IMG/VR virus record: IMGVR_UViG_3300022670_000133 | Coordinates: 1-36,726 of that record | Source: a virus | Taxonomy: Duplodnaviria > Caudoviricetes | Length of the DNA stretch: 36,726 nt | Direction: 5' to 3' (one strand) | Shown here: positions 1 to 36,726 of the stretch, one piece after another | Layout of the letters: the number at the start of each line of letters is the position of its first letter | Position numbering within the stretch: the stretch's first letter is position 1 | Translations under genes and position numbers: made by a program | The notes under the pieces: model-generated | What the model was told of the DNA's origin: nothing | Databases searched by the model: none | What the model saw: only the letters and a program-made list of their open reading frames with translations

Positions 1-2
1 GC

Positions 3-5429: not shown

Positions 5430-6716
5430 ATGGTAAATAATGTAGAAAGTAACTTTAGAGAGAAGGTCATGCCGATCTTTCTCCAAGAATTTGATAACAA
5501 CCGTGTATTTTCAAAGACCGTTGATACACAGCTTTTAACCGGCGTATTTAATGCGGACAGTGGTGAGAGCGTAGCCTATAAACGGGGAACCGATTATCTG
5601 GCAATTGAAACCACAGACGGCGATTTGACGGGTGAAGATGCATCACCGATCATTGTTGGTAACGGGTTTGCCCGCGTTCAAAACCGGATTACTGTTCTTG
5701 TAGAGTACCAACGTATTGAGCAGGCGTTGAAGCTTAATCAACTTGCCGAACTCCTTCGTCCTGCCGCAAAACGAGCGGTAACGCAGCTAGAATTGAATAT
5801 GGCGCGGTTCATGATCAAGAATACCGGGCTTCTTTCTGGCACTGTAGGCACTCCCGCCGCATCCTGGACAGATGTTGCCGACGCGGGCGCGATTATGCAG
5901 GCAACCGGCGTTCCTATGGATAATATGTGGACTTATGTTGTTAATCCGTTCACACAAACGGCGCTTGCAAACGAGGTTCGTTCTCTTGGCGCTGGTGGCG
6001 CTGTTGGCACGGATATCAAAACAGCGTTAGACACCGCAACAATCAGCGAAAGCTACGCGGGCTTTGGTCGTGTTATGACGGCCACAACTCAAGCATCGTA
6101 TATCTCGGACTCCGAGGCAGACCGTGCGGGAACTTTGTCAGGTAACCCTGATGTAACTTATGTTACAGCCAAGGATACAATGACACAGATTCTCCCTGTC
6201 CAGGACTTTGGGAATGATCTTGAAATTAAAGCAGGCGAGCAAATTCAGATTACGGGCCGCAATCGCTTGAATCTGTCAACGCGTGAGCTTGTTGTAGATG
6301 CTTCCGGCAATCCTATCGTTTGGACTGGAACAGTAACAGCAGATGTAATCTTGTCCGGTACTGGCACAGGAAACATTACTGTGACCGGCCCAGCTATCTT
6401 TGAAACTGGCTCTGGTAACGGTGCGTTTAACACGGTTGATTCCGCTCCTGTTTCAACAGATGTTGTTACTCTTCTTGGTGCGGCAAGCACGACAAAACAG
6501 CCTAACCTGTTCTATCACAAACAGGCTTTCGGTGTTGGCTTTGTTGAGCTTCCAAATCTTGATGCACAGCAGAATTCCGGCACGACTAAAGACGGAATTC
6601 ATATCCGTGTCACACGTGGTTCTGATTTCATCAAGGACAAAAATATGGTCCGCTTTGATCTTCAGCCCGCTTTTGCTGCATTGAATCCGTTCCTTGCAGG
6701 CCAGGGTTTCGGCTAA
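5430..6716 (+). CDS. major capsid protein, P22/Sf6-like coat
   Basis: 428 aa with a beta-rich insertion domain, PNLFYHKQAF and C-terminal VRFDLQPAFAALNP; synteny. Confidence 0.93.
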   Translation: MVNNVESNFREKVMPIFLQEFDNNRVFSKTVDTQLLTGVFNADSGESVAYKRGTDYLAIETTDGDLTGEDASPIIVGNGFARVQNRITVLVEYQRIEQALKLNQLAELLRPAAKRAVTQLELNMARFMIKNTGLLSGTVGTPAASWTDVADAGAIMQATGVPMDNMWTYVVNPFTQTALANEVRSLGAGGAVGTDIKTALDTATISESYAGFGRVMTATTQASYISDSEADRAGTLSGNPDVTYVTAKDTMTQILPVQDFGNDLEIKAGEQIQITGRNRLNLSTRELVVDASGNPIVWTGTVTADVILSGTGTGNITVTGPAIFETGSGNGAFNTVDSAPVSTDVVTLLGAASTTKQPNLFYHKQAFGVGFVELPNLDAQQNSGTTKDGIHIRVTRGSDFIKDKNMVRFDLQPAFAALNPFLAGQGFG

Positions 6717-18882: not shown

Positions 18883-19136
18883 AATACATTCTCATACTCT
18901 CAATGTTCGCTCTTGTTGGATGCAGTACAGCGCAAACCGTAGGCGATATAAAGCGTATACCGGACAGGATAGAGAACGTCATCAACATCATACAAGATCT
19001 TGAGCTTGACGGCCTTGAACTTTTCATACGAAAAGCACGTGAACGCTTGGCAGAGAAAGAAGCTGCGGTTGAATTGAATTATGTCAGAGATAAGGCACAG
19101 ATTAAACGGGGCTGGCAGATATTGGGCGGGAAATAA
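18879..19136 (+). CDS. lipoprotein, possibly spanin-like
   Basis: Signal peptide with lipobox LVGC; follows the endolysin. Confidence 0.65.
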   Translation: MKYILILSMFALVGCSTAQTVGDIKRIPDRIENVINIIQDLELDGLELFIRKARERLAEKEAAVELNYVRDKAQIKRGWQILGGK

Positions 19137-19170
19137 TCCCCCCTCGGACGTGAGGCGAACCGAGAGGGGA
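19131..19170 (-). terminator. terminator hairpin ending leftward transcription
   Basis: 11-bp GC-rich stem followed by TTATTT on the minus strand, at the convergence with the late operon. Confidence 0.7.
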
Positions 19171-19236
19171 ATCAATGGGAGCCTTAAGGAGGGCGGCTCT
19201 AAGGCGGGGAAAGAATGAATAACACCGCCAACCATT
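19131..19236 (-). ncRNA. candidate three-hairpin trans-acting sRNA with anti-start-codon and anti-SD loops
   Basis: Minus strand: GGCGG-[UGUUAUUCAUUCUUUCC]-CCGCC; GAGCC-[GCCCUCCUUAA]-GGCUC; UCCCCUCUCGG-loop-CCGAGGGGGGA-UUAUUU; has its own promoter. Confidence 0.7.
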
Positions 19237-19242
19237 AATGGA

Positions 19243-19271
19243 ATAATATTTAATATACTCGATGTTGTCAA
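19243..19271 (-). promoter_or_regulatory. sigma70-type promoter for the candidate sRNA
   Basis: TTGACA (19271-19266), 17 nt, TATTAT (19248-19243). Confidence 0.75.
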
Positions 19272-19273
19272 TC

Positions 19274-19588
19274 TTATCCATTCTTCCATTCCCAATAACG
19301 ACTTCTGGCTATTTCCTTTACCTGATCGATAGACCAGCCTTTATACTTCATCCAGAACGCCACCTGATTATCACCTTCCTCTGCGTGATGCTTTCTACAC
19401 AATGGCATTATTAAATCATCTGGCGGCTTAAGTCCCATTCCTCCTGACGAGCCGTGACGTATATGTGCCCCAACCGTTGTCTCTGTGGTCTGGCATACCT
19501 CGCAGGGTTTGCCCTTATGATCCTTTCTCCATAGCTTATCGATAAGCCGTTTTATCTTACCGAAAGGGAGCATTGAGGTATCCATCAT
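19274..19588 (-). CDS. DUF968-like zinc-binding/HNH-like protein
   Basis: CEVC...AHIR...GMGLKPPD...PLCRKHH. Confidence 0.7.
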   Translation of the reverse strand: MMDTSMLPFGKIKRLIDKLWRKDHKGKPCEVCQTTETTVGAHIRHGSSGGMGLKPPDDLIMPLCRKHHAEEGDNQVAFWMKYKGWSIDQVKEIARSRYWEWKNG

Positions 19589-19600
19589 TCTTTCCTCATA

Positions 19601-19822
19601 TCATTTAAAATCCTCTAGTTTTTCGTATACGTCACCCCAATAATTACGCCCTTTTGATGTCTGACTCCATTTAAAAGACATCATCAGCATGTCATGCATC
19701 GAACAGTTTTTTTCTTGCTCTTTGTTTGACTGAATAGGCTTAAGGTTTTTAATTACATCATCCCAATATTCGCGGTCTTCTGGTATCTGGTTAATACCGT
19801 CAATTAATTGTTTAATCATCAT
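19601..19822 (-). CDS. hypothetical protein
   Basis: 73 aa with AGGA SD; FKWSQTSKGRNYW. Confidence 0.65.
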   Translation of the reverse strand: MMIKQLIDGINQIPEDREYWDDVIKNLKPIQSNKEQEKNCSMHDMLMMSFKWSQTSKGRNYWGDVYEKLEDFK

Positions 19823-19944
19823 TCTTTCCTATAAATTGGGTGGGGCGAATCATGTCCCCACCCGTTAATATTTTAAAGAAACTCTCGAAAGCCTCCGATG
19901 AAAATCCGCCTTGCCACGCCGGGCCGTGACTTTCGGCTGTAAAA

Positions 19945-20373: not shown

Positions 20374-21025
20374 TATCATCACCTGGAAACGTACCGCCGA
20401 ATCTGTCTTTCAAATCAGATAGTATTTTTTGATCATTCTCATGGAAGCCGGTTATATGCTGTATGTTGTCGTTGTATATTTGTGCGGCGTCTTCTGAATT
20501 AACGGCGTTTTCCAGAGCATGGCCTATCCTGTTGTAATGCTTTTCAGCATCAGAGATTTCTTGTTTGACAGGCTCCTTCTTTTGTGCCGCGTTGTTATCG
20601 TCTGCCGTGTCCTCGTTGTCCTTCTCGCCAGTCTCAAGAGCGAAGGTCTTCAGGTAAATCATCTTACAGGCATAACTAACGGCCTTGCCTGGTCCCAGGT
20701 CATTCTTATCAATCCCATAACCAAAACCATTAACAGTTATTTTGTCTTCTGGATTATCGATATTCACGAAATCAATTGAAACATCAACATGAGTTAATAT
20801 TGCGACGCCGTTCTTTTCCTGCTTATCACATTTTGAATGCTCTTTTACTGTAGGAATAGCAATAACTTCATGCTTAACAAGTTGCTCGCGAACTAGCCGT
20901 GTAACATCGTCGTGACTGACAAATTTGTACTTCTGGAAAGTATTTGTTCCGCCCTTCTTCACATACGAAATGTCTTTCATAATCGCGTGTATGCGCTGGT
21001 GGATATTCATTTTCTTGTCAGTCAT
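20366..21025 (-). CDS. erf: ERF-family ssDNA annealing recombinase
   Basis: KGGTNTFQKYKFVS and GKAVSYACKMIYLKTFALETGEKD motifs. Confidence 0.82.
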   Translation of the reverse strand: MTDKKMNIHQRIHAIMKDISYVKKGGTNTFQKYKFVSHDDVTRLVREQLVKHEVIAIPTVKEHSKCDKQEKNGVAILTHVDVSIDFVNIDNPEDKITVNGFGYGIDKNDLGPGKAVSYACKMIYLKTFALETGEKDNEDTADDNNAAQKKEPVKQEISDAEKHYNRIGHALENAVNSEDAAQIYNDNIQHITGFHENDQKILSDLKDRFGGTFPGDDNG

Positions 21026-21230
21026 TCTTTATTTCCTCAATTTTCTCATACAGTGGACACAGCCCCCCGTTTACATTTCTACAATATAGAAACGGCTCGG
21101 CATTGTCCCACATATCTTTGGTTATAAATCCAAATCCATCAACACGTTTATGCATCCTGCAAAGCCAGTATCTCTGGTGTTTTGACGTCTTATCGCAATG
21201 CTTGCAATCTTCACAAAATGTGTGTGTCAT
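21018..21230 (-). CDS. Cys-rich hypothetical protein
   Basis: CEDCKHC...C...C...CPLY. Confidence 0.7.
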   Translation of the reverse strand: MTHTFCEDCKHCDKTSKHQRYWLCRMHKRVDGFGFITKDMWDNAEPFLYCRNVNGGLCPLYEKIEEIKND

Positions 21231-21460: not shown

Positions 21461-21477
21461 GTTATCATTCCTTTCAA

Positions 21478-21784: not shown

Positions 21785-21891
21785 CACAACCCCGCCATAT
21801 AGTTAAGCAACGCCACAACAACAGAACCAATCACAATCCATGTTGCTATCTCGCCCCATTGTTGGGCCTTTAATCTGTTCAGGTGTTTCAT
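21784..21891 (-). CDS. small membrane protein (35 aa, not in ORF track)
   Basis: MKHLNRLKAQQWGEIATWIVIGSVVVALLNYMAGL; GGAG SD; ATGA coupling. Confidence 0.6.
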   Translation of the reverse strand: MKHLNRLKAQQWGEIATWIVIGSVVVALLNYMAGL

Positions 21892-22088
21892 TCTTTCACT
21901 CCGATCTTGGTGTACACATATTTACCACAAACACTTATTTGCACATCAGTAATCACATACCCCAGCATTCCTGCGTAACCTCTATTAATTTCCCAATCAG
22001 TTTCATGCATTTTATAGCCCTGCTTGGTCAAATCACGTTTCTGACGCCTAAAGGCCAAAGTTTCTTTTGTGAAACTGGTAACGATCAT
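21888..22088 (-). CDS. hypothetical protein
   Basis: 66 aa with AGGAGG SD. Confidence 0.7.
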   Translation of the reverse strand: MIVTSFTKETLAFRRQKRDLTKQGYKMHETDWEINRGYAGMLGYVITDVQISVCGKYVYTKIGVKE

Positions 22089-22097
22089 TCTTTCCTC

Positions 22098-22391
22098 CTA
22101 AGATACTTTGCCTCTTACCGGCGTCGGTATTCCCATCCAACTCTCACCAGACGCCATGACGCACGTTCGTCCGCCTGGATGTGTTAAAACAATTGTCCAC
22201 GTAATCCCATCGGGGCTGGTAAATACCTCTAAAACACTTCCATTCGCAGCCAATCCAGCAGCAACAGGAACCTCGTCATATTTACCGTTTAAATGCTTGA
22301 TTAGATCTCCTCTGTTGAAGCAAGCGTTCTGTGCAAATGCACCTGTTGAAATTACCGTAAATACTACGGATATCGAAATGAGCTTTTTCAT
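22098..22391 (-). CDS. secreted/periplasmic protein resembling a conserved alphaproteobacterial hypothetical family
   Basis: Signal peptide ending in AFA; C..R...L..KY.E...G...E.F.S..G.TWTI..T.P.G.TC..ASG.SW; GGAGG SD. Confidence 0.75.
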   Translation of the reverse strand: MKKLISISVVFTVISTGAFAQNACFNRGDLIKHLNGKYDEVPVAAGLAANGSVLEVFTSPDGITWTIVLTHPGGRTCVMASGESWMGIPTPVRGKVS

Positions 22392-22408
22392 TCTTTCTTC
22401 CTCCGTTT

Positions 22409-22534: not shown

Positions 22535-22583
22535 ACAATACCACAACATTTCCTCTTGTCAATAACTTTTTATTGTGTATAAT
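22535..22583. promoter_or_regulatory. divergent early promoters with overlapping -35 boxes
   Basis: Leftward TTGACA-16-TATTGT with an extended TG; rightward TTGTCA-16-TATAAT; both centred on TTGTCAA at 22556-22562. Confidence 0.7.
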
Positions 22584-22609: not shown

Positions 22610-22837
22610 ATGATTAACTTTCTAAAACTACCGACTACCTGGAAATGGCGCATTCAAAAGGCGGAGCTTTCTATAAGCGATGTTGCTGACAAGATGGATA
22701 TGAAATTCAGCAATCTTTCTGCTCTTATAAATTCGCGCCGTATCCCGAGTGTGAATAACATGCAGGCAATAGAGACACTTCTTGCCGAGCATGGACAGGC
22801 ATTCAAGGTGGAGTATATCGAAGATGAAACGTCCTAA
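22610..22837 (+). CDS. Cro/XRE-like HTH regulator
   Basis: LSISDVADKMDMKFSNLSALINSRRIPS; first gene of the rightward operon. Confidence 0.75.
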   Translation: MINFLKLPTTWKWRIQKAELSISDVADKMDMKFSNLSALINSRRIPSVNNMQAIETLLAEHGQAFKVEYIEDETS

Positions 22838-23144
22838 ATACCGTAACAAGAAAACCGTTGTTGATGGCATGACGTTCGACAGCAAGAAAGAGGCTCAGCG
22901 GTACCAGGATTTAAAACTCTTGCAACTTGGTAATGACATATCAGATTTGAAGATCCAGCCAGAGTTTAAACTGCATGTTAATGGCTTCCTTGTATGCAAA
23001 TACAGAGCAGACTTTTCATACACAGAGCGCGGCGAATATATCGTTGAGGATGTGAAGTCAGAGATAACCCGCAAGAACAGGGCATACAGAATCAAGCTCA
23101 AGCTCATGAAAGCGGTTCATGGGATAGATATTAAGGAGACATAA
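22824..23144 (+). CDS. DUF1064 family putative endonuclease
   Basis: KYRNKKTVVDGMTFDSKKEA, YRADF and VEDVKS motifs. Confidence 0.9.
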   Translation: MKRPKYRNKKTVVDGMTFDSKKEAQRYQDLKLLQLGNDISDLKIQPEFKLHVNGFLVCKYRADFSYTERGEYIVEDVKSEITRKNRAYRIKLKLMKAVHGIDIKET

Positions 23145-23146
23145 GA

Positions 23147-23500
23147 ATGAGTGAACAGGAATATTGGTACAGATATGAAGTATATTACAACGATATATTG
23201 TTGAATAAATACAGAGTCGCAAGGCATACAAAATGCGGTGTATGGCTGGCCCGAAGGCATAATACAGAAAAGTTTGTGCTGAACGAAGCGCGGAAGAGGT
23301 GGGCATATCCTAGCATAGAAGGCGCAAGAATAAACTTTATAAAGCGCCGTCAGTATTATTTAGCCATATTAAAAGGGCAGCACGATAAGGCTGTAGAGCT
23401 TCTTGATTTCATTGGTAATGATGGAGAAAACCTTCCGAAAATGACAAGTAAATACGTTCGATTCAGAACTCCTGATGTTGCATATCCGGGGTTTGATTAA
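23147..23500 (+). CDS. hypothetical phage protein
   Basis: 117 aa with AAGGAG SD; TKCGVWL...KFVL...RKRWAYP. Confidence 0.7.
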   Translation: MSEQEYWYRYEVYYNDILLNKYRVARHTKCGVWLARRHNTEKFVLNEARKRWAYPSIEGARINFIKRRQYYLAILKGQHDKAVELLDFIGNDGENLPKMTSKYVRFRTPDVAYPGFD

Positions 23501-23528
23501 TCTTTGACAAAGCAAAAGGAGTGAAAGA

Positions 23529-23849
23529 ATGGAATTCAGAGGATTAAATCAATCAATGATAGCAATCGCAAAGGATAGTTATTGTGTAAAAGGTCTAACC
23601 AACAAAGAGATAGCTGGTAAGTTTGATTTCAAAGAAGATGTTATCAGGGGTTTAGCTAAATATTTAGGGTGGGTCAGGCCGGGTTGGTACGATAAAGAAG
23701 TTATTCGTATTGCAAAAATGACCAAAGCCATGCGCGAAAAAGGAGGGTTTGTCGTTGATAAGGCGGTAGAGAAAGACAGCAAAACATGGCCCGAAGATGC
23801 AAGGTTTGATAGGCCAGGAATGAACTATACTTTCAAGAGATATTTTTGA
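23529..23849 (+). CDS. hypothetical protein, possible HTH
   Basis: GLTNKEIAGKFDFKEDVIRG; AAGGAG SD. Confidence 0.6.
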   Translation: MEFRGLNQSMIAIAKDSYCVKGLTNKEIAGKFDFKEDVIRGLAKYLGWVRPGWYDKEVIRIAKMTKAMREKGGFVVDKAVEKDSKTWPEDARFDRPGMNYTFKRYF

Positions 23850-23860
23850 GGAGAGAAAGA

Positions 23861-24049
23861 ATGATGGGTAAAAGAATGAAAGGCAGAGGTAAGTATCTTA
23901 GTTTAGGGAATGGGAGCTTTACTGTTTTAAAAGACGTGGACGCGATTGTAATTATCCAAACACAGGAGCATCTATCCAGGGAAATAACTATAGCAGATAA
24001 TGCGTTTAAAGCGCTTATGGAATTCTTGAATGAGGAGACAGAAGAATGA
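23861..24049 (+). CDS. hypothetical protein
   Basis: GAGGAG SD before ATG 23861. Confidence 0.6.
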   Translation: MMGKRMKGRGKYLSLGNGSFTVLKDVDAIVIIQTQEHLSREITIADNAFKALMEFLNEETEE

Positions 24050-24495
24050 ACATCGCAGAAACAGAACAGAAGATCGAGGAACTAACCAAACGAATCACAA
24101 AGGCTCGTAAAGACCATAAGACAAGCTCAAAAATGGTTGCTGAGCAGAAAAGACTTCGTAACACTATTCTTGCGCATGGCAAAATTAAAGACTTCGCCAA
24201 CAAAGAGAAGGCAAAGAAAGAAGCCGTGCAACAGCGTGTTGACGCTACCAACGCAGCACAATTCGACACATACCGCCCGCTAGGACTGACAGAGCAGCCA
24301 ACACATGAAGAAATACGGCGAGACAGGGACGCACAGAGAGATACAAACCACGCCGTGACAAACGCAATGGATAATATGTTTGTGTCAACCAGTGAAGCCG
24401 CCGACCTTTCAGATCCTAATGTCCGCCGCAAGTTTTCCGGGCTTCCACCAACACTGTGGCAAAGAGTAAAGAGTTTCTTTGCAAGATGGTTTTAG
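24046..24495 (+). CDS. coiled-coil hypothetical protein
   Basis: 149 aa; GAGGAG SD; amphipathic C-terminal tail. Confidence 0.65.
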   Translation: MNIAETEQKIEELTKRITKARKDHKTSSKMVAEQKRLRNTILAHGKIKDFANKEKAKKEAVQQRVDATNAAQFDTYRPLGLTEQPTHEEIRRDRDAQRDTNHAVTNAMDNMFVSTSEAADLSDPNVRRKFSGLPPTLWQRVKSFFARWF

Positions 24496-24504
24496 GAGGA
24501 AAGA

Positions 24505-24831
24505 ATGATACCTTTCAACAGTCACATAACTAAAGACGATATACAAAAAATAAATAATTTCTTGGAAAACGCGACAGATGATTCTGGATTAGTTCACGAT
24601 AAAGCCACGTTACCTATCAAAACTTTGGGCTCATATCATATCGTAGTGAATGTTTTTCATGTGGATTCATACAATTCTGTAGGCGTGAATTATATTGAAG
24701 AAGATCAAAAGAAAGCGGAACGTGAGATCAGCAAGACTTATTGGCAAAGCGTAGAGGATAAAGAGGCAATAGAGAGAGATGGATATATCATATTAGAGGG
24801 AAATATTGACAAAACAACAGAACAAGAGTAA
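24505..24831 (+). CDS. hypothetical protein
   Basis: 108 aa; AGGAGG SD. Confidence 0.65.
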   Translation: MIPFNSHITKDDIQKINNFLENATDDSGLVHDKATLPIKTLGSYHIVVNVFHVDSYNSVGVNYIEEDQKKAEREISKTYWQSVEDKEAIERDGYIILEGNIDKTTEQE

Positions 24832-26190: not shown

Positions 26191-26495
26191 GCATGAGGGA
26201 AAGGCTTTACGAAATTCAGTGCAAATATATTCGTCAGGGTTATGACGGATCGTGTATCTGCAAGGAAGACAAAGGCATTATTGACAATAAGGATTACGGG
26301 GAAGGGACCCGCATGTGTCGGCTTCTTTGCGTTGAGTCTGTTAACGCAATTCTGGACGCCATGATGGTGCCAACACCGGAGATGCTGGAAAATGTCGGCT
26401 GTATGAACAATTTCGAAGACGAAGGCTACGAAACAGCCGACGCAGACCATACCGAATGGTGGCAAGCAATGCTCACAGCAGCAAAGGAAGAATGA
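26187..26495 (+). CDS. hypothetical phage protein
   Basis: PTPEML...WWQAMLTAA. Confidence 0.65.
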   Translation: MSMRERLYEIQCKYIRQGYDGSCICKEDKGIIDNKDYGEGTRMCRLLCVESVNAILDAMMVPTPEMLENVGCMNNFEDEGYETADADHTEWWQAMLTAAKEE

Positions 26496-26496
26496 A

Positions 26497-26745
26497 ATGA
26501 GGAAAATATATAGCTTCGATGATTTCGATAACTTGAACGCGCTAACCGTCGAGAAAATAAAAAACACGATAGAGATAAGCTTCAAACCAGAGAGATTATC
26601 CTTGAATGAGGACGAAGCCAGAAGCATGACATACGCATTAATGGAAATACTGGAGATATCCACAAAGAACGACGACCCATGCCTTGCCTGCACAGAGAGA
26701 GCAGAGGCAGAATACCAGGCGGAAGAAGGAAAACATTTGAGATAA
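26497..26745 (+). CDS. hypothetical protein
   Basis: 82 aa, packed in the operon. Confidence 0.55.
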   Translation: MRKIYSFDDFDNLNALTVEKIKNTIEISFKPERLSLNEDEARSMTYALMEILEISTKNDDPCLACTERAEAEYQAEEGKHLR

Positions 26746-26765
26746 ACAATGAATGAATAAACTTA

Positions 26766-26793
26766 TTGACACGCAGTAATAATTAATTATACT
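26766..26793 (+). promoter_or_regulatory. sigma70-type promoter for the accessory ORF cluster
   Basis: TTGACA-16-TATACT in an AT-rich gap. Confidence 0.7.
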
Positions 26794-26823
26794 AAGGCAT
26801 ACAAAGAATGAAGGAATGAAACG

Positions 26824-27009
26824 ATGGAACCTTATATAATTGCTGCTGCCACCCTTATTATTGTTGCGGGGATTTTGGTGCTGATTTTTATAGCTTTTTA
26901 CGACCATGAAAAAGAAAACGCACTGCTTAAATTTTGTCTGTTCTGGGTTTGTGTTGGGTCCTTATGCGCCCTACCAATAATACCTTTCATGTGGGTAGGG
27001 ACGCAATAA
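26824..27009 (+). CDS. small two-TM protein
   Basis: Two hydrophobic segments; AAGGA SD. Confidence 0.65.
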   Translation: MEPYIIAAATLIIVAGILVLIFIAFYDHEKENALLKFCLFWVCVGSLCALPIIPFMWVGTQ

Positions 27010-27021
27010 AGGAATGAAGCC

Positions 27022-27204
27022 ATGATTTATGTTTTAATAATTATGATATTTAGTGCCAATAACGAACCTATCATAGTTCACACTCAAGAATTTAACTCTA
27101 AGACAACTTGTGAAGTTTCATCCAGTATTGTCATGAACGAATTAACTTCTAGGCGCTATAGAAATAGAAGATGGAACCACTTTTTTGAATGTGTGAAAAA
27201 ATGA
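27022..27204 (+). CDS. small exported/membrane-anchored protein
   Basis: Hydrophobic N-terminus; QEFNSKTTCE...CV. Confidence 0.65.
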   Translation: MIYVLIIMIFSANNEPIIVHTQEFNSKTTCEVSSSIVMNELTSRRYRNRRWNHFFECVKK

Positions 27205-27216
27205 AGGAATGAAATC

Positions 27217-27538: not shown

Positions 27539-27745
27539 ATGATGAGTGAGGCAACAATAGAGCGCCCTTTAAAAGTTGGTCTGATGATTGATGATACTAT
27601 GCATTCTGTAGAAATGGAGTCTAATACAAATGATATTTATGTTTATGAGGGTAAACATATAGTGCAACACTTCAATGACAAAGCGGAATTCGCGGAGTTT
27701 TATAAACTCATCTGCATAGCCAGGGAAGAAATGGAGAAAGAATGA
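27539..27745 (+). CDS. hypothetical protein
   Basis: GAGGA SD before ATG 27539. Confidence 0.6.
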   Translation: MMSEATIERPLKVGLMIDDTMHSVEMESNTNDIYVYEGKHIVQHFNDKAEFAEFYKLICIAREEMEKE

Positions 27746-27910: not shown

Positions 27911-28144
27911 ATGAACATCACAGTAACAGAAGAAGAAGCCCAGGTAACCGCTACTTACATGGACGCATTACAGCTATCAAATCGTGCGCTGGCGAAGGCT
28001 TTGGAAGTGGCTGAACGGGATTTCGATCGAATTTACACAAGGATTGAAAGCAGTGACCCTTTGCATGAAGCAAGCGACCACTGCAAGAACGCAAGACAGG
28101 ATGTTAGAGCAGCACTTAAAGAAAGAATGATCCATGACACATGA
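27911..28144 (+). CDS. hypothetical protein
   Basis: Helical, 77 aa, packed in the operon. Confidence 0.55.
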   Translation: MNITVTEEEAQVTATYMDALQLSNRALAKALEVAERDFDRIYTRIESSDPLHEASDHCKNARQDVRAALKERMIHDT

Positions 28145-30828: not shown

Positions 30829-30951
30829 CCTAATTGACCTAATTATAAGACTCATTGCACAGGTGATATAATGCCCTTATCACATCAATTCTGTATATGG
30901 ATGTTAGTGGGCGGCTTTATCTTTGATTATGTAATATAGAGGAACGAAAGA

Positions 30952-31329
30952 ATGAGCATGGAACTAAAAGATTTATGGATTGTCGATGTTAAAGGTGAGG
31001 CTGAAACAGGAAGTTGGGAGATTTCTGTTATCCGAAGCACTAACATACATGGGCAGGAAAGCTATGGGTGGATTGACTCTACTAAACTCCTTATTGGGAG
31101 CAGCGGCGGCCCCAGACACAACACGGTTATTAAAATAGTATGGGACGGTCTTATCAAGTTAGCCGAAGAAACCCGCGATCATTTGAACGCCAAAGATTCA
31201 CAAACCAAAGAGGCGTTAGAAAGAAATGCCAGAGCAGGCGCAAGAATAACAACGCCCGATGAACGTCTAGATATGTTGGATATGATCTTAAAGCCAATGA
31301 TGGACAAACTAACGGAGGACATAAAATAG
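30952..31329 (+). CDS. hypothetical protein
   Basis: 125 aa; GAGGA SD. Confidence 0.7.
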   Translation: MSMELKDLWIVDVKGEAETGSWEISVIRSTNIHGQESYGWIDSTKLLIGSSGGPRHNTVIKIVWDGLIKLAEETRDHLNAKDSQTKEALERNARAGARITTPDERLDMLDMILKPMMDKLTEDIK

Positions 31330-31364
31330 CTTGAGTTAACGCATACAACATGTAAGATAAAGAA

Positions 31365-31795
31365 AGACCCCGCAACGCGCAAACGTCCGGGGCATGAGAT
31401 TAAGGTTTTTCTGGTAAGACTTCCCCTTAATCTAAGATAGTTTTAGCACCGTTACAAAACTATTTCCACAAAAAAATCTTCCAGTGAGCATAACACAATA
31501 ACTATGCAAGGCTTTTGGCTTCAAGTTTATAGATGAAGCAATTAAATCCGGCTCTGTCATGGCGACAACCGGGACTGTGATGCGGCATCCCCGTAACGGT
31601 TACCGAGAGAGACTGTTGACCGACTGACCCAATCAGGACCAGGCAGTTTTTTTGATACAGCCGTGTTAAGTGTATCAACAGGGTGGCACAGGGTCACAAG
31701 CCGAGAGGCAAAAGGAAATGAGTACTCGGGCGCAAGCCTTCCCTTGGGACGGGACTGTAAGGGTTAAGGGGCTGTAGCTCATACCTCACAGGAGA
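31365..31795 (+). ncRNA. candidate large structured ncRNA
   Basis: ~500-nt gap with no credible ORF, more than 10 stems and two GNRA tetraloops; possible promoter TTGAGT-16-TAAGAT at 31331-31358. Confidence 0.6.
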
Positions 31796-31827
31796 AAAAG
31801 CCATAACTATGAATGAAGGAGAAGAGG

Positions 31828-31993: not shown

Positions 31994-32022
31994 TAGACAA
32001 CCACATCAAAGGGATGTATAAT
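31994..32022 (+). promoter_or_regulatory. sigma70-type promoter
   Basis: TAGACA-17-TATAAT. Confidence 0.7.
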
Positions 32023-32028
32023 AAACAC

Positions 32029-32179
32029 ATGTGCGGCGGCGTGGAAAGCAGACACACAAATCTAATCTTTAGCCTAACGGCGGCGCGGCATGGTTAAATA
32101 ATGATTTCAGCCGATTAGATCATGCTACTACTCTGAGGAGAGGCAAAACACCAGCCGGTTTAGCGCCCGGCCCGCACAT
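32029..32179 (+). ncRNA. tRNA-like structured RNA with an expanded central domain
   Basis: Closing stem ATGTGCGG/CCGCACAT; D-arm-like GTGGAAAGCAGACAC; T-arm-like GCCGG-TTTAGCGC-CCGGC; inner ATCTAATC/GATTAGAT. Confidence 0.6.
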
Positions 32180-32197
32180 ACAATAAAGGATGAAAGA

Positions 32198-32341
32198 ATG
32201 GAAAAGTTTAAGAAAACGGTACGAGTAATTTTTATAACAATGGCGGTCATAGGTCTATTCGATATGGCGATTCAAGGTGCTACAAGCGGCGAGGTAGGGG
32301 TTATTAAAAACGTTTTATCTGTAATTTTCCAAAAAGATTAG
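32198..32341 (+). CDS. small membrane protein (47 aa, not in ORF track)
   Basis: MEKFKKTVRVIFITMAVIGLFDMAIQG...; AAGGA SD. Confidence 0.55.
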   Translation: MEKFKKTVRVIFITMAVIGLFDMAIQGATSGEVGVIKNVLSVIFQKD

Positions 32342-32345
32342 CCAC

Positions 32346-32516
32346 ATGACAGATTGGACAAAGCCAGAAGCATACATGGTGGGGTATCATATATTGCTTG
32401 AAAAATTGTTAATGGAAGCGCGGGAAATTCAAGTTTTCCACCACCCGGTAATTACAGTGTACAATCCAGATGGGACGAAAACGATTTTGAACGGCAAAGA
32501 GATAGGGAAAGAATGA
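32346..32516 (+). CDS. hypothetical protein (56 aa, not in ORF track)
   Basis: MTDWTKPEAYMVGY...; packed in the operon; weak SD. Confidence 0.45.
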   Translation: MTDWTKPEAYMVGYHILLEKLLMEAREIQVFHHPVITVYNPDGTKTILNGKEIGKE

Positions 32517-32594
32517 ATATGGACGAAAAACTTTCAACATGTCGGTTAGTAGAAAAAGGTGATATAGTATCATCTTTCAATGCAGGGTGATGGG

Positions 32595-32837: not shown

Positions 32838-33026
32838 ATGTGCTATAAGTCAGTGAGGGAAGACATCGGAGTGTCGCAAAAGGAATTCGCGGTAAAGTAC
32901 GGGGTCCCATTGGAGAGCCTTAAAAACTGGGAGCAAGGCCGCAGAGTTCCTAATGGCCCAGCAAAGACGTTGTTAAAGGTAATTGCCAGCAACCCAAAGG
33001 CAGTAGAAAGGGCGTTAAAATTATGA
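32838..33026 (+). CDS. XRE HTH protein, HigA/YiaG-like
   Basis: SQKEFA...SLKNWEQGRRVPNGPAKTLLKVI. Confidence 0.85.
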   Translation: MCYKSVREDIGVSQKEFAVKYGVPLESLKNWEQGRRVPNGPAKTLLKVIASNPKAVERALKL

Positions 33027-33481: not shown

Positions 33482-33829
33482 ATGGCTGGAGGTAAGCAAA
33501 AAGGTTCTGAGAAGACAGGCGGTAGGAAGAAAGGAACACCTAACAAGGTTCCCTCTCTGCTGAAGGACGCTATTCTGAAGGCGACTGAATACGCGGGTGA
33601 GGAATTCATAAAGAAGCGTATAGAAGAGGCCATTGAAAAAGGTGAGGTCTATGACCATGAGGAGCCAATGGTTGAATATCTCAAGGCGCAAGCAGTAGAA
33701 AACCCCAATGCATTCATGACAATCTTAGGTAAAGTTCTTCCCATGCAGATAACAGGCGCAGACGGCGCGCCAATAAGAGTGGAACAGCAAACGGTGTTTT
33801 TCAATCCTGTAGGTGGTGATGATAGCTGA
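33482..33829 (+). CDS. terS: terminase small subunit
   Basis: KTGGRKKGTPNK, AFMTILGKVLP and ITGADGAPI motifs; directly before terL. Confidence 0.8.
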   Translation: MAGGKQKGSEKTGGRKKGTPNKVPSLLKDAILKATEYAGEEFIKKRIEEAIEKGEVYDHEEPMVEYLKAQAVENPNAFMTILGKVLPMQITGADGAPIRVEQQTVFFNPVGGDDS

Positions 33830-35345
33830 ACCCATACAGATAGATTACGTTTACAAGCTTCATCCAATTTTTACCAAGAAGAAGCGCCTTAAGATTATCA
33901 TCGGTGGTCGAGCCTCTACCAAATCAACAGGCATCGCCGACAAGGTTGCGGTTGATGTTATGAATGGACAGTTATGGTGTTGTGCCAGAGAAACGCAAAA
34001 CTCCATTGAAGAATCTGTTCACAGGACATTGTTAGACGAAATAGAGCGGTTTGGACTTAGGGGCTTCGAAGACACTAAAACAGAGATACGGCATACAGCA
34101 AGCGGCGGGCGCACATTTTACCGCGGTCTTTCACGCAACATCACATCCTTAAAATCTACACTCTCAGGAATTGACGGCCTTTGGATTGAAGAGGGGGAAG
34201 ACCTTTCTGCAAATACATTGCGCGTTCTAACGGCCTCAGTCCGCCTGAATGCAACTGACACAGCGCGGGCTATAGCCGGTGAAGATGTAAAGATGCCTGA
34301 GATTATCATAACAATGAACAGAGGCGCACGTGATGGCGCCGTTGCAAAGAAGTGGCTTGCCAGAGCAGAGAAAGAGTTAAACAGGTGCGGGTATTATGAA
34401 GACGACCTAATGATTGTCGTTGAAATGAATTACACAGACATGCCTAGAGATTGGTTTGAAATGTCCGGCCTAGAGGAAGAGAGAGCCGATGACTACGAAA
34501 AGGAGAGCCGTGCATTTTACAATCATAAATGGGGAGGGGCGTATATGGATGAGGTTGAAGGTTCAATTATTAAGCCTGAATGGGTTGAGGCGTCGATTGA
34601 TGCACACAAACTCCCGCATCTGGAAAATGTATTTACGCCACATGGAGCCGCCCTTGCTAGCTTTGACCCTTTTAATGGTGGTGCTGATGCGGGCGGTTAT
34701 ACGTTACGTCATGGTTCGATTATCAAGAGAGTATTGGAGAAAACAACAGGGGAGATAGACGAGGTATGCGATTGGGCAACGGGAGAGGCAACCACGGACG
34801 GTGCCGACTGGTTTGTGTGGGATGGCGATGGTATGGGTACGGGTTTAAAGCGGCAAGTTTCCCTGGCTTTCGACGGCACAAGAACGCAATACCACATGTT
34901 CAGAGGAAGTTTATCAGGTTCAGGGCAGGACAACGCAGCCAAGCTTTACATGGAATCTGAAGGCGACAGCGACCCTGAAAAAAAGAACAAAGCCAATAAA
35001 ACTTATGCTGAAACATTCAAGAACAACAGGGCGCAATATTACTTCCTTTTAGCAAGAAGGTTTTATAATACGTACAAATGCGTTATAAAGGGGCATTACA
35101 TAGATCCTGATGAAATGATTTCCCTTGATTCTGAAGGCATTGAAGACATGGTAGGCTTAAAGTCTGAGTTGTGCAGAATACCCCGGAAATCCAATCCGGG
35201 CGGTCTTTTGCAGATTATGAGTAAAGACGAAATGAAGCGGCACAAGATAGACAGCCCCAACAGAGCGGACGCTATCATGATGAGCATATTTGCCCCTTCG
35301 GTAGCCACAAAGCACACACCAATACAATTTGACGGGTGGAATTAA
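33819..35345 (+). CDS. terL: terminase large subunit (PBSX/Sf6-like headful type)
   Basis: Walker A GGRASTKS; CARETQNSIEESV; Walker B LWIEEGE; nuclease motifs WDGDGMG and SPNRADA. Confidence 0.93.
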   Translation: MIAEPIQIDYVYKLHPIFTKKKRLKIIIGGRASTKSTGIADKVAVDVMNGQLWCCARETQNSIEESVHRTLLDEIERFGLRGFEDTKTEIRHTASGGRTFYRGLSRNITSLKSTLSGIDGLWIEEGEDLSANTLRVLTASVRLNATDTARAIAGEDVKMPEIIITMNRGARDGAVAKKWLARAEKELNRCGYYEDDLMIVVEMNYTDMPRDWFEMSGLEEERADDYEKESRAFYNHKWGGAYMDEVEGSIIKPEWVEASIDAHKLPHLENVFTPHGAALASFDPFNGGADAGGYTLRHGSIIKRVLEKTTGEIDEVCDWATGEATTDGADWFVWDGDGMGTGLKRQVSLAFDGTRTQYHMFRGSLSGSGQDNAAKLYMESEGDSDPEKKNKANKTYAETFKNNRAQYYFLLARRFYNTYKCVIKGHYIDPDEMISLDSEGIEDMVGLKSELCRIPRKSNPGGLLQIMSKDEMKRHKIDSPNRADAIMMSIFAPSVATKHTPIQFDGWN

Positions 35346-36726
35346 TGGACCTATCGATTAGGCAGGGTATGACCGCCAGTATAAAGCAACGCATGGTGCG
35401 AAGTGATACAGTCCTTTCCGCCCCTGTATTGACACTACCCACAGACGTAAGCACGGGCGTTATGACGGCGGACGGCACAGTAACAACCGACACAGGCAGC
35501 GGCACGTTGCATTTCTATGTGTCGATATCCGCAATTCCCCCAAGTAGTAGCGATTTAATAGAAGGCACTGATTCTGTTACTTTCGGCGACCAGGCTGTAG
35601 GCGCGGTTGGTGTGCAGAATATCTCTGTGTCAGGTCTTACAGGTGACACGGATTATTTCATACACTATGTGCAGACACTTGGCCCCGTGACGAGCAATAT
35701 CGCCTCTGCTGACGGTTTCACCACGGCGTCGGCTCCTGATATTATCGCGCCTATATTGTCCTCACCAACAGACACGGAAACAGGAGAAACAACTTCATCC
35801 GGCAGCGTTATAACCGATGAGGGCAACGGTACACTGTTCTTTGTCATCACACTGTCATCAACGCCACCAACTAAAGCTCAAGTTAAACTTGGACAAGATG
35901 ATAGCGGTTCAGCGGCCACAGATAGCGGCTCCCAAGCTGTTACTGTTTCTGGTGTGCAGAACATCACAGGTTCAGGGCTCACCAACAATACGGCTTACAC
36001 CACTCACTATATGCACGAAGACGCAGCCACTAATCAATCAGATGTATCTACGGCTGATGGATTTACCACAGCGGCAAGCGGGGCCTTGAATGTTGCTAAC
36101 CAGCCAATAGACTTTGGTGATAAGACAGCGAGCGGATCAGGACTATACACGCTAGAGGTTATCGCGGGTACGGTTACATCAGCCTCTATTACTTCTGGCG
36201 ATGCGTCTGGACATTGGACGATAGCTACTAACGGAGATCTAACGCCTTCTGCGGCCGGGGATACAGCCAACCTTAGTCTTGGTCCTTATTCATTGGCCTG
36301 TTCGTATAATGCGGGGGCAGACACAGCCACGCATACGGTAACAATTGAAAGCGGTGCGAGCTGTATTTCTCATACTGAGGCTGAAACACATGTAACAGCT
36401 ACCAGTACATCTGCTGATGACTTTGTACTCTTACGTGGTGGTCAAACGATTGGCTCCCGTGGTGTTGTCTTTGATTATGACAAAGGCTTTGACGGAACAA
36501 TCAGCGATCCAGACAGGAATGATAAAACTGCAGGGGCCAAGGCCACATACAGCGGCGGCTCTATAACATTCAGACGCCACGCCAATGATGCAAGCGCGCC
36601 CGTGGTTGACGGCGTGTTTAGAATGACTGGAGCCGGCCCATTCTATCTAGACAAATTAGACTTTATTAACGCACCAACATCTGACAGCAGCTATAACGAT
36701 CAATCAGCGGCTGGTGATAACCTGAA
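35345..36726 (+). CDS. N-terminal part of the large modular virion/adhesin-like protein (not in ORF track; runs off the window)
   Basis: TAATG coupling to terL; MDLSIRQGMTASIKQ..., open for 460 codons to the window end; FN3-like units at ~35411-35725 and 35738-36070, then an Ig/cadherin-like segment and the start of a beta-helix. Confidence 0.8.
   Translation, partial: MDLSIRQGMTASIKQRMVRSDTVLSAPVLTLPTDVSTGVMTADGTVTTDTGSGTLHFYVSISAIPPSSSDLIEGTDSVTFGDQAVGAVGVQNISVSGLTGDTDYFIHYVQTLGPVTSNIASADGFTTASAPDIIAPILSSPTDTETGETTSSGSVITDEGNGTLFFVITLSSTPPTKAQVKLGQDDSGSAATDSGSQAVTVSGVQNITGSGLTNNTAYTTHYMHEDAATNQSDVSTADGFTTAASGALNVANQPIDFGDKTASGSGLYTLEVIAGTVTSASITSGDASGHWTIATNGDLTPSAAGDTANLSLGPYSLACSYNAGADTATHTVTIESGASCISHTEAETHVTATSTSADDFVLLRGGQTIGSRGVVFDYDKGFDGTISDPDRNDKTAGAKATYSGGSITFRRHANDASAPVVDGVFRMTGAGPFYLDKLDFINAPTSDSSYNDQSAAGDNL

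What the first reader, a model, noticed from the sequence alone, without database searches (positions are those of the whole stretch)
19131..19271. Candidate phage sRNA whose loop is antisense to a start-codon box shared by about 12 early genes (possible RNA substitute for CI)
Seen in sequence: between the convergent late and left-early operons, a near-consensus minus-strand promoter (TTGACA-17-TATTAT) has no credible ORF behind it. It would make a ~105-nt RNA with three hairpins ending in a terminator. Loop 1 (UGUUAUUCAUUCUUUCC) is the reverse complement of GGAAAGAAUGAAUA. A 15-nt perfect match lies at 32505-32519 (start 32513), 11-nt matches at starts 19588, 19822, 22088, 24505, 21891 and 22391, and 9-10-nt matches at 23529, 23861, 27742, 30952 and 32198. 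Loop 2 exposes CCUCCUU, a perfect anti-Shine-Dalgarno. Established: alphaproteobacterial multi-hairpin sRNAs (AbcR, CcsR/cuckoo) repress translation with CU-rich anti-SD loops. Inference: one trans-acting sRNA may silence or time a regulon across both early operons in a phage with no recognisable CI. I know of no described phage system of this form.
Basis: partly seen in the sequence, partly recalled or inferred. Interest (0 to 1): 0.92.

Follow-up and report, generated by a model that had tools for sequence, protein, structure and literature searches.

The report
Phage RNA mirroring early start tags
A marine phage carries a predicted ~105-base RNA gene whose exposed loop is complementary to a private tag at about 20 of its early gene starts and none of its late ones, so one small RNA likely shuts off early protein synthesis; the design recurs with other tags in related phages and would give the unexplained 'start-associated sequences' an RNA partner.

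Summary
Observation confirmed. A minus-strand TTGACA-17-TATTAT promoter precedes a 108-nt structured unit (z -4.2; no Rfam family). Loop 1 can form a helix of at least 9 bp with 20 of 43 early starts and 0 of 23 late starts; the tag is rare in likely host genomes. A close relative keeps the promoter, the loop core and stem pairing (minus strand only), and breaks the overlapping ORFs. It loses loop 2's anti-SD, so loop 2 is not supported. Related P22-architecture phages, including cultured H6/1, pair different tags with their own antisense units (3 outliers among 71 units, tag-blind scan). Cluster K1 mycobacteriophages hold their single reverse SAS copy in a conserved loop, in the gap where late transcription starts. 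Best reading: a trans-acting antisense RNA that damps early translation as it accumulates (0.55). 'CI substitute' is weak: cro and the replication initiator lack the tag, and Adephagia has both a repressor and the loop. Against: no transcript seen, many tagged phages lack a partner, and tags may spread by gene swapping. This scan noted the same design before on many other genomes.

The parts
19243..19271 (-). sigma-70-type promoter, -35 TTGACA (19271-19266), 17-nt spacer, -10 TATTAT (19248-19243); starts 3 nt after the stop of the DUF968 gene
   Evidence: -35 unchanged and -10 TAATAT in relatives X2, X3 and X5
19129..19236 (-). predicted small RNA, about 105-108 nt (also the 3' end of the left early transcript)
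   Evidence: no transcript data
19203..19229 (-). hairpin 1; loop 19224-19208 UGUUAUUCAUUCUUUCC, core 19218-19211 antisense to AAGAAUGA
   Evidence: core unchanged, flanks changed, stem pairing kept in the relative
19179..19199 (-). hairpin 2 with CCUCCUU loop; stem conserved, anti-SD loop dispensable
   Evidence: 7-nt deletion leaves a 4-nt loop in the relative; no early/late bias
19129..19171 (-). terminator-like hairpin (19171-19137) with weak U tail
   Evidence: no change listed in the relative; not listed by the standard scan
19585..19595 (-). tag over start 19588 (DUF968/HNH-like gene), 11 bp
19819..19829 (-). tag over start 19822, 11 bp
21022..21030 (-). tag over start 21025 (ERF recombinase), 9 bp
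21465..21473 (-). tag upstream of start 21460, over the SD, 9 bp with one G-U
21887..21897 (-). tag over start 21891, 11 bp
22085..22095 (-). tag over start 22088, 11 bp; 30 nt around it are identical in the relative although the gene behind it is replaced
22387..22397 (-). tag over start 22391 (gene with Sneathiella homologues, which lack the tag), 11 bp
22535..22583 (.). overlapping divergent early promoters (leftward 22562-22535, rightward 22556-22583); no CI gene between the arms
22610..22837 (+). Cro-like HTH gene; its start lacks the tag
23143..23152 (+). tag over start 23147, 10 bp with one G-U
23523..23533 (+). tag over start 23529
23855..23864 (+). tag over start 23861
24041..24050 (+). 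tag over start 24046
24498..24508 (+). tag over start 24505, the called gene just upstream of the O-like initiator
26486..26496 (+). tag upstream of start 26497
26803..26820 (+). two tandem tags upstream of start 26824
27009..27018 (+). tag upstream of start 27022, over the SD
27203..27213 (+). tag upstream of start 27217, over the SD
27736..27745 (+). tag over start 27742
28121..28130 (+). tag upstream of start 28134
30946..30956 (+). tag over start 30952
32192..32202 (+). tag over start 32198
32505..32519 (+). longest match (15 nt), before a 25-codon ORF at 32513 that overlaps the upstream stop; gene status unverified

Best explanation
The unit at 19236-19129 is likely a trans-acting antisense RNA whose loop 1, complementary to a private AAGAAUGA tag at about 20 early gene starts and no late ones, is predicted to pair over their ribosome sites and would damp early translation as the RNA accumulates during infection. 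Shown: promoter-like site, stable fold, exposed loop, early-only complementarity, conservation in a relative, the same design with other tags in other phages. Inferred: transcription as a discrete RNA; pairing of 9-14 bp across SD or AUG blocks 30S loading (established for RBS-occluding sRNAs); timing as a delayed brake on mostly small accessory genes plus ERF, perhaps with polarity on the O-like initiator, because the five called genes upstream of it all carry the tag. Hfq help is possible (Hfq in 5 of 5 Sneathiella genomes) but untested.
For: Early 20 of 43 against late 0 of 23, Fisher p 3.6e-5; shuffled loops reach 17 targets in 5 of 2000 trials, mean 1.2. Of 8 promoter-terminator units in the window only this one matches many starts: 20 of 68 against 0-2. 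In 6 of the 20 targets the site lies upstream of the AUG, so it is not just start-codon context. Tag not a host habit: 0 of 585 called starts in 33 Sneathiella-type loci have AAAGA-ATG; 17 copies of GGAAAGAATGA in about 18 Mb of five Sneathiella genomes against 6 in 37 kb. Relative in run X2 (37.7-kb contig): 8 substitutions and a 7-nt deletion, none in the 8-nt core, the -35 or the terminator stem; U-G becomes U-A, G-C becomes G-U (a pair only on the minus strand), one new G-C pair. Tag-blind scan of 71 units in 37 genomes: 3 antisense outliers (window, H6/1, G006; 10-20 own starts, z 4.1-4.8), each with a different tag; the sense control gave one z of 3 or more, resting on 2 hits. Cluster K1: the reverse SAS copy lies in a hairpin loop, CCUCCUAUCC in 6 of 6 K1 phages aligned, and 9 of 49 predicted pairs change on both sides; late transcription starts in that gap (PMC11373665 section 19).
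Against: No transcript or protein data for this phage. No homologue of the RNA outside the close relatives, so structure support rests on three stem changes in one study. Fine-scale covariation was not seen: the relative's loop flank changed but the one tag I could read (22088) did not; 15 of the window's early starts pair with the relative's loop against 20 with its own. In the tag-first scan 14 of 21 genomes with a candidate tag had no antisense copy before a terminator, 7 of 18 orphan copies did, and background is 0.08-0.34. Pixie (19 SAS) and TM4 (11 SAS) have no reverse copy, and Keshu and Pixie keep the leader but not the loop. A sigma-70 promoter should fire at entry, so the delay is assumed. 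The terminator tail is weak. Direction of effect (repression) is inferred.
Confidence: 0.55

Rival explanations
1. The same RNA pairing serves as immunity: it would keep a resident or carrier-state genome quiet or block a superinfecting kin phage, in place of CI. Tag divergence between phages would then define immunity groups, as for c4 in P1 and P7.
For: No S24-type CI found; host-type promoter needs no phage factor; tags and loops differ between phages; c4 sets P1/P7 heteroimmunity by RBS pairing (PMC12197685 passage).
Against: No tyrosine integrase and no integrase or partition protein among 63 proteins scanned; cro, O-like initiator, NinB and resolvase starts lack the tag; CI is absent in relatives with and without units; Adephagia has a repressor, and its loop region is reported as a late start, not among the lysogen transcripts.
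Confidence: 0.13
2. The tag spreads because accessory genes are swapped by recombination at shared start regions; the reverse copy is a captured start fragment beside a terminator with no regulatory role.
For: In the relative a 30-nt start region is kept exactly while the gene behind it is replaced, and two other joints fall within 2 nt of tagged start codons (19590, 21892). Many tagged phages have no partner.
Against: Does not explain a strong promoter, an unpaired loop with a conserved core and minus-strand-only pairing, six tags displaced from the AUG, or three tag-blind outliers with different tags. The plus-strand copy opens only 7 codons, behind a hairpin.
Confidence: 0.13
3. The tag is bound by a protein (a RegA/RegB-like translation factor or nuclease on RNA, or a DNA-binding regulator), and the reverse copy is an operator or a plus-strand decoy made by late read-through.
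For: No U tail follows the hairpin on the plus strand, so late transcripts could read through and carry GGAAAGAAUGA in a loop; many early proteins have no family. T4 RegA/RegB recalled, not tested.
Against: Promoter, G-U pairs and U tail all point to the minus strand; the minus fold is more stable in both versions; in H6/1, G006, G016 and G018 the terminator is also on the antisense strand.
Confidence: 0.1
4. The RNA pairs with the tag but with another outcome: it would activate or stabilise tagged mRNAs, or guide their cleavage, without blocking ribosomes.
For: Early promoter timing fits a helper of early genes; the phage sRNA PreS is described as acting on host dnaN to favour lytic growth (review PMC12197685 part 1).
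Against: The helix covers the SD or the AUG itself in all 20 targets, which by established sRNA mechanism excludes the 30S subunit.
Confidence: 0.07

Closest known systems
Start-associated sequences (SAS) of cluster K mycobacteriophages (Pope et al. 2011, PMC3203893; Freeman et al. 2024, PMC11373665); SAS-like motifs of Microbacterium cluster EF phages (PMC7302621)
   Same: Private, asymmetric motif at the ribosome site of 11-19 non-structural genes, rare in the host, with a single reverse copy not at a gene start in four K1 phages. I found that copy in a conserved hairpin loop.
   Different: Other sequence, host phylum and virion type. Here the tag centres on the AUG, and the reverse copy is a stand-alone promoter-to-terminator unit, not part of a late leader. 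The papers give no mechanism (role 'not known' in 2024), and K2/K3 phages TM4 and Pixie lack the reverse copy.
c4 antisense RNA of phages P1 and P7 (review PMC12197685, passage)
   Same: Phage-encoded RNA (77 nt) whose loop-exposed segments pair around a phage ribosome site and block translation; specificity differs between related phages.
   Different: c4 controls the antirepressor message; this RNA would address about 20 unlinked starts in both early arms through one shared tag. No Rfam match, no antirepressor found.
Cuckoo (CcsR/RSs0680) RNAs of Alphaproteobacteria (PMC4615179, passages)
   Same: Short multi-hairpin RNA with pyrimidine-rich loops; likely host is an alphaproteobacterium.
   Different: Cuckoo loops all carry CCUCCUCCC, a generic anti-SD. 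Here neither loop does, the working loop reads a phage-private tag, and the anti-SD loop is dispensable.
sar (P22), OOP and aQ (lambda) antisense RNAs (review PMC12197685, part 2)
   Same: Short own-promoter RNAs in phages of lambdoid/P22 layout that lower expression of early regulators.
   Different: Each is described as antisense to one target (ant, cII, Q); this unit overlaps none of its predicted targets.

Membership tests
SAS-type start tag (cluster K) | conserved motif beyond the SD at starts of a subset of non-structural genes | tested here: met
   20 of 43 early, 0 of 23 late starts
SAS-type start tag (cluster K) | asymmetric, one orientation, a single reverse copy not at a start | tested here: met
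   the only intergenic non-start copy of GAAAGAAT/AAAGAATG is at 19209
SAS-type start tag (cluster K) | rare in the host genome | tested here: met
   host assignment to Sneathiella is itself an inference from one gene
SAS-type start tag (cluster K) | 13-bp consensus GGGATAGGAGCCC | tested here: not met
   tag is AAGAATGA; the window's unit matches 2 of 92 Adephagia starts, Adephagia's unit 1 of 68 window starts
SAS-type start tag (cluster K) | upstream 17-bp inverted repeats (ESAS) at about half the sites | not tested
   only direct repeats were searched
c4 antisense RNA (P1/P7) | match to the Rfam C4-type models | tested here: not met
   no hit at gathering score in the window; 3 unrelated weak hits at E 0.77-5.6
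c4 antisense RNA (P1/P7) | loop-exposed segments complementary to a phage ribosome site | tested here: met
   (prediction)
c4 antisense RNA (P1/P7) | target is the antirepressor operon | tested here: not met
   no antirepressor family among 63 proteins; targets lie in both early arms
c4 antisense RNA (P1/P7) | translation block shown by experiment | not testable with these tools
   no expression or reporter data
cuckoo RNA | 2-4 adjacent hairpins | tested here: met
cuckoo RNA | CCUCCUCCC in every loop | tested here: not met
   loops read UGUUAUUCAUUCUUUCC and GCCCUCCUUAA; definition from PMC4615179; no Rfam hit

The most novel reading that the evidence does not exclude
Phages build private translational regulons: each lineage stamps a short tag on the ribosome sites of its early and accessory genes, including genes freshly taken from the host, and encodes one antisense RNA that reads the tag. 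Tag and RNA drift together, in P22-like marine podoviruses and in mycobacteriophages alike. This would be a general RNA-based early-to-late switch and the function of start-associated sequences.
Probability: 0.4. Interest if true: 0.92.

Novelty: new variant of a known kind. Interest (0 to 1): 0.78.

Why it matters
Phage early-to-late switches are usually explained by proteins acting on transcription. One RNA that addresses a third of a phage's genes through a self-made tag would be a new layer of control. It would supply the RNA partner that Pope et al. left open for SAS in 2011, still called unknown in 2024 for phages used in therapy. It is testable now in two cultured phages (H6/1, Adephagia) with reporters and compensatory changes. 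Tag and RNA pairs would also be natural orthogonal translation switches, and the tag helps call small early genes.

Tried and rejected
Homologue searches for the RNA: pattern of both loops in viral contigs gave 42 stretches, none with the fold or tag enrichment; promoter plus loop-1 pattern gave 40 stretches, none comparable; blastn in 24 related records gave two 14-17-nt chance hits; no match in 50,697 phage records. Sequencing runs: no RNA holder listed; X1 may be the source and was left out; X4 does not cover the unit. Host start context rejected. Small-ORF reading rejected. Loop 2 as general anti-SD rejected. Sixteen metagenome loci of 16 kb or more around gp10 showed no outlier unit, but they cover mostly late genes; the other 64 of 80 were not scanned. 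The 53 viral loci found with the Sneathiella-like gene carry no AAAGA-ATG start. The reversed-sequence control is invalid for CT-repeat loops (H6/1, G006), so I used cross-genome controls. The cross-genome matrix ranks own genome first for 6 of 7 units at 8 nt (4 of 7 at 9 nt), but six units were chosen because they held the tag, so I do not count it as independent; one search is the tag-blind test. G008's hit (7 nt from a terminator end, weak promoter) was discounted. The LSM search for Hfq was uninformative (control negative in E. coli). No shared operator beyond the -35 word was seen between this promoter and the early promoters. Literature searches with no paper describing this mechanism; subscription journals are largely outside the library.

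Full report
Setting. The window is a whole virus record of 36,726 bases. It has a P22-type virion module (portal, coat, gp4, gp10, ejection proteins), an M15 endolysin, a leftward arm with ERF, NinB and DUF968, and a rightward arm with a Cro-like HTH, a resolvase, an O-like initiator and many small unknown genes. No tyrosine integrase and no S24-type CI was found. One early gene has close homologues in Sneathiella genomes, so the host is likely a Sneathiella-like marine alphaproteobacterium; this rests on one gene. The nearest cultured phage is Pseudoalteromonas phage H6/1 (coat 54%).

The observation. Between the last late gene (stop 19136, plus strand) and the last left-arm gene (stop 19274, minus strand) lies TTGACA-17-TATTAT at 19271-19243. 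The RNA behind it folds far better than shuffles (z -4.18) and matches no Rfam family. Loop 1 is open and is the complement of GGAAAGAATGA, found 6 times against 0.03 expected. I wrote a simple gene caller that reproduced most of the annotated H6/1 genes and called 68 genes here, 43 early, 23 late and 2 unassigned by position. Loop 1 matches at least 8 nt perfectly at 17 of 43 early and 0 of 23 late starts; shuffled loops average 1.2 and reach 17 in 5 of 2000 trials. Allowing one G-U, 20 of 43 against 0 of 23 form at least 9 bp, and in 6 of the 20 the site lies upstream of the AUG, across the SD. Among 8 promoter-to-terminator units found in the window without reference to the tag, this one matches 20 of 68 starts and the others 0-2. 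The tag is not a host habit: 0 of 585 called starts in 33 Sneathiella-type loci, which are largely one orthologous region and include the homologues of the tagged gene at 22391, and 0-6 copies per Sneathiella genome.

A close relative. Runs X2 and X3 (one study) hold a related phage, in X2 a 37,710-base contig. In the unit it shows 8 substitutions and a 7-nt deletion. None touches the -35, the terminator stem or the 8-nt loop core. In the basal helix U-G becomes U-A, in stem 1 G-C becomes G-U, which pairs only on the minus strand, and a new G-C pair extends stem 1; the relative's version folds to the same shape at -45.3 kcal/mol. The deletion removes CCUCCUU from loop 2 and leaves its stem, while loop 1 becomes complementary to AGGAGAAGAATGA, so an anti-SD core moves into loop 1. 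The three minus-strand ORFs across the unit fall from 131, 59 and 111 to 38, 11 and 18 codons. A 151-nt contig from another study (X5) differs at 2 places only. Against fine covariation: the one tag I could read in the relative, at 22088, is unchanged; the relative's loop still pairs with it through the core and AGGAG with a 2-nt bulge (-14.5 kcal/mol against -17.7 for the window's loop over the same span). That 30-nt start region is kept while the gene behind it is replaced, which also fits gene swapping at start regions.

Other phages of the group. I assembled 22 IMG/VR records and 14 isolates. Several have their own start tag: H6/1 AGGAGAGA, G006 GGAGATAGAGAGATGA, G018 TAACGAGGG, G016 TAAGGAG. 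In H6/1, 10 of 12 GGAGAGA copies are early ribosome sites, one is in a gene, and one is reversed in the loop of a terminator behind a promoter-like site. G006, G018 and G016 show the same, with no ATG at working distance on the sense strand. The tag-blind test is: 71 units in 27 of 37 genomes, scored against own and foreign starts, give three antisense outliers (G006, H6/1, window; z 4.1-4.8) and, in the sense control, one z of 3.2 resting on 2 hits. The tag-first scan is weaker: 7 of 21 genomes had an antisense copy before a terminator, one of them doubtful, with backgrounds of 0.08-0.34; 14 had none. The design is recurrent, not universal. My promoter and terminator thresholds were set after I had seen four of the units.

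Link to the literature. Pope et al. 2011 (PMC3203893, passages read) describe 11-19 SAS per cluster K mycobacteriophage, note a single reverse copy in four K1 phages and leave open an RNA or protein partner. I recalled SAS and searched for it before consulting the scan's notes on it. In Adephagia and Anaya the reverse copy (16 forward, 1 reverse) sits in the loop of a long hairpin between genes 92 and 93. The region is found in 137 phage records; I aligned 7: the loop CCUCCUAUCC is present in 6 of 6 K1 phages and 9 of 49 predicted pairs change on both sides. Freeman et al. 2024 (PMC11373665, passages and section 19) report that late transcription starts between genes 92 and 93, that the phage has a repressor, and that the role of SAS is not known. 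That is the only expression evidence, it is indirect, and I could not see the figure or the supplements. Against: K3 phages Keshu and Pixie keep the leader but not the loop, and TM4 has no reverse copy. Other papers seen: review PMC12197685 (parts 1-2 of 6 and passages; c4, sar, OOP, aQ, PreS, VpdS), PMC4615179 (passages; cuckoo definition), PMC7302621 (passages; SAS-like motifs, role unclear), PMC8244752 (passages; nothing comparable). Searches found no paper that proposes an antisense RNA for a shared phage start tag. The scan's own notes record this design on other genomes (10 and 146 word matches, 16 notes shown); they are unchecked and are not counted as support.

Mechanism. Most likely the RNA is made from a host-type promoter and as the 3' end of the left transcript, accumulates, and pairs through loop 1 over SD or AUG of tagged messages, so that 30S loading fails. 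Late genes escape because they lack the tag and have weaker SDs (p 0.002). The tagged genes are mostly small accessory genes and ERF; cro, the initiator, NinB and the resolvase are untagged, although the five called genes before the initiator are all tagged, so polarity could reach it. This fits a delayed brake in a lytic cycle better than a CI substitute. Steps shown: sequence, fold, specificity, conservation, recurrence. Steps inferred: transcription, pairing, repression, timing.

Verdict. A real feature and probably a real RNA. It works like c4 but is not a member; its targets meet most SAS criteria except the sequence. New variant of a known kind, with a 0.4 chance of being a general and so far undescribed regulon design. 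Interest 0.78.

Noticed in passing
window 35333-36726 and 1-2003 (+): Open frames of 472 and 667 codons run up to and away from the window's ends in different frames when the ends are joined: probably one very long gene between terminase and portal, cut at the assembly junction. No PHROG or Pfam hit for the 96-2003 part.
   Followed up: partly
window 22098-22391 (-): 97-aa gene 60-83% identical to a conserved Sneathiella chromosomal gene; the phage copy has gained the start tag.
   Followed up: partly
window 19137-19171 (+): No U tail follows the hairpin on the plus strand, so late transcripts may read through and make a full antisense to the small RNA, a possible late off-switch.
   Followed up: no
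window 31330-31810 and 31994-32197: Two long gaps in the right arm with G+C-rich inverted segments, the second behind a strong promoter-like site (TAGACA-17-TATAAT at 31994); possible structured leaders or further RNAs. No Rfam hit.
   Followed up: no
window 26486-27213 (+): Four neighbouring small genes share the variant AAGGAATGAA placed over the SD, behind a promoter-like site at 26766.
   Followed up: partly
window 32838-33026 (+): Second HTH gene (HTH_3, 62 aa) near the end of the right arm, untagged; candidate regulator of the early-late switch.
   Followed up: no
L051 (H6/1) 5478-5634, 22852-23226, 26207-26348, 31209-31304: A motif around GACCAGTT recurs in four intergenic gaps but not at the antisense unit's promoter; possible operator.
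   Followed up: no
L327-L332 (Vibrio phages 1.184.A and D478, Shewanella phage X14): Shared start tag TAACATG/AACATGA at 8-10 genes with no antisense unit found, while the related BA3 has a candidate unit at 33594-33662.
   Followed up: partly
L341-L342 (Shewanella phage ZP9) 24753-24915 (-): Intergenic unit with a tRNA-like cloverleaf segment.
   Followed up: no
L349 (Adephagia) 57798-58029: The HicA-like toxin gene 91 carries a SAS (PMC11373665), so an anti-SAS RNA could also guard against toxic early products.
   Followed up: no
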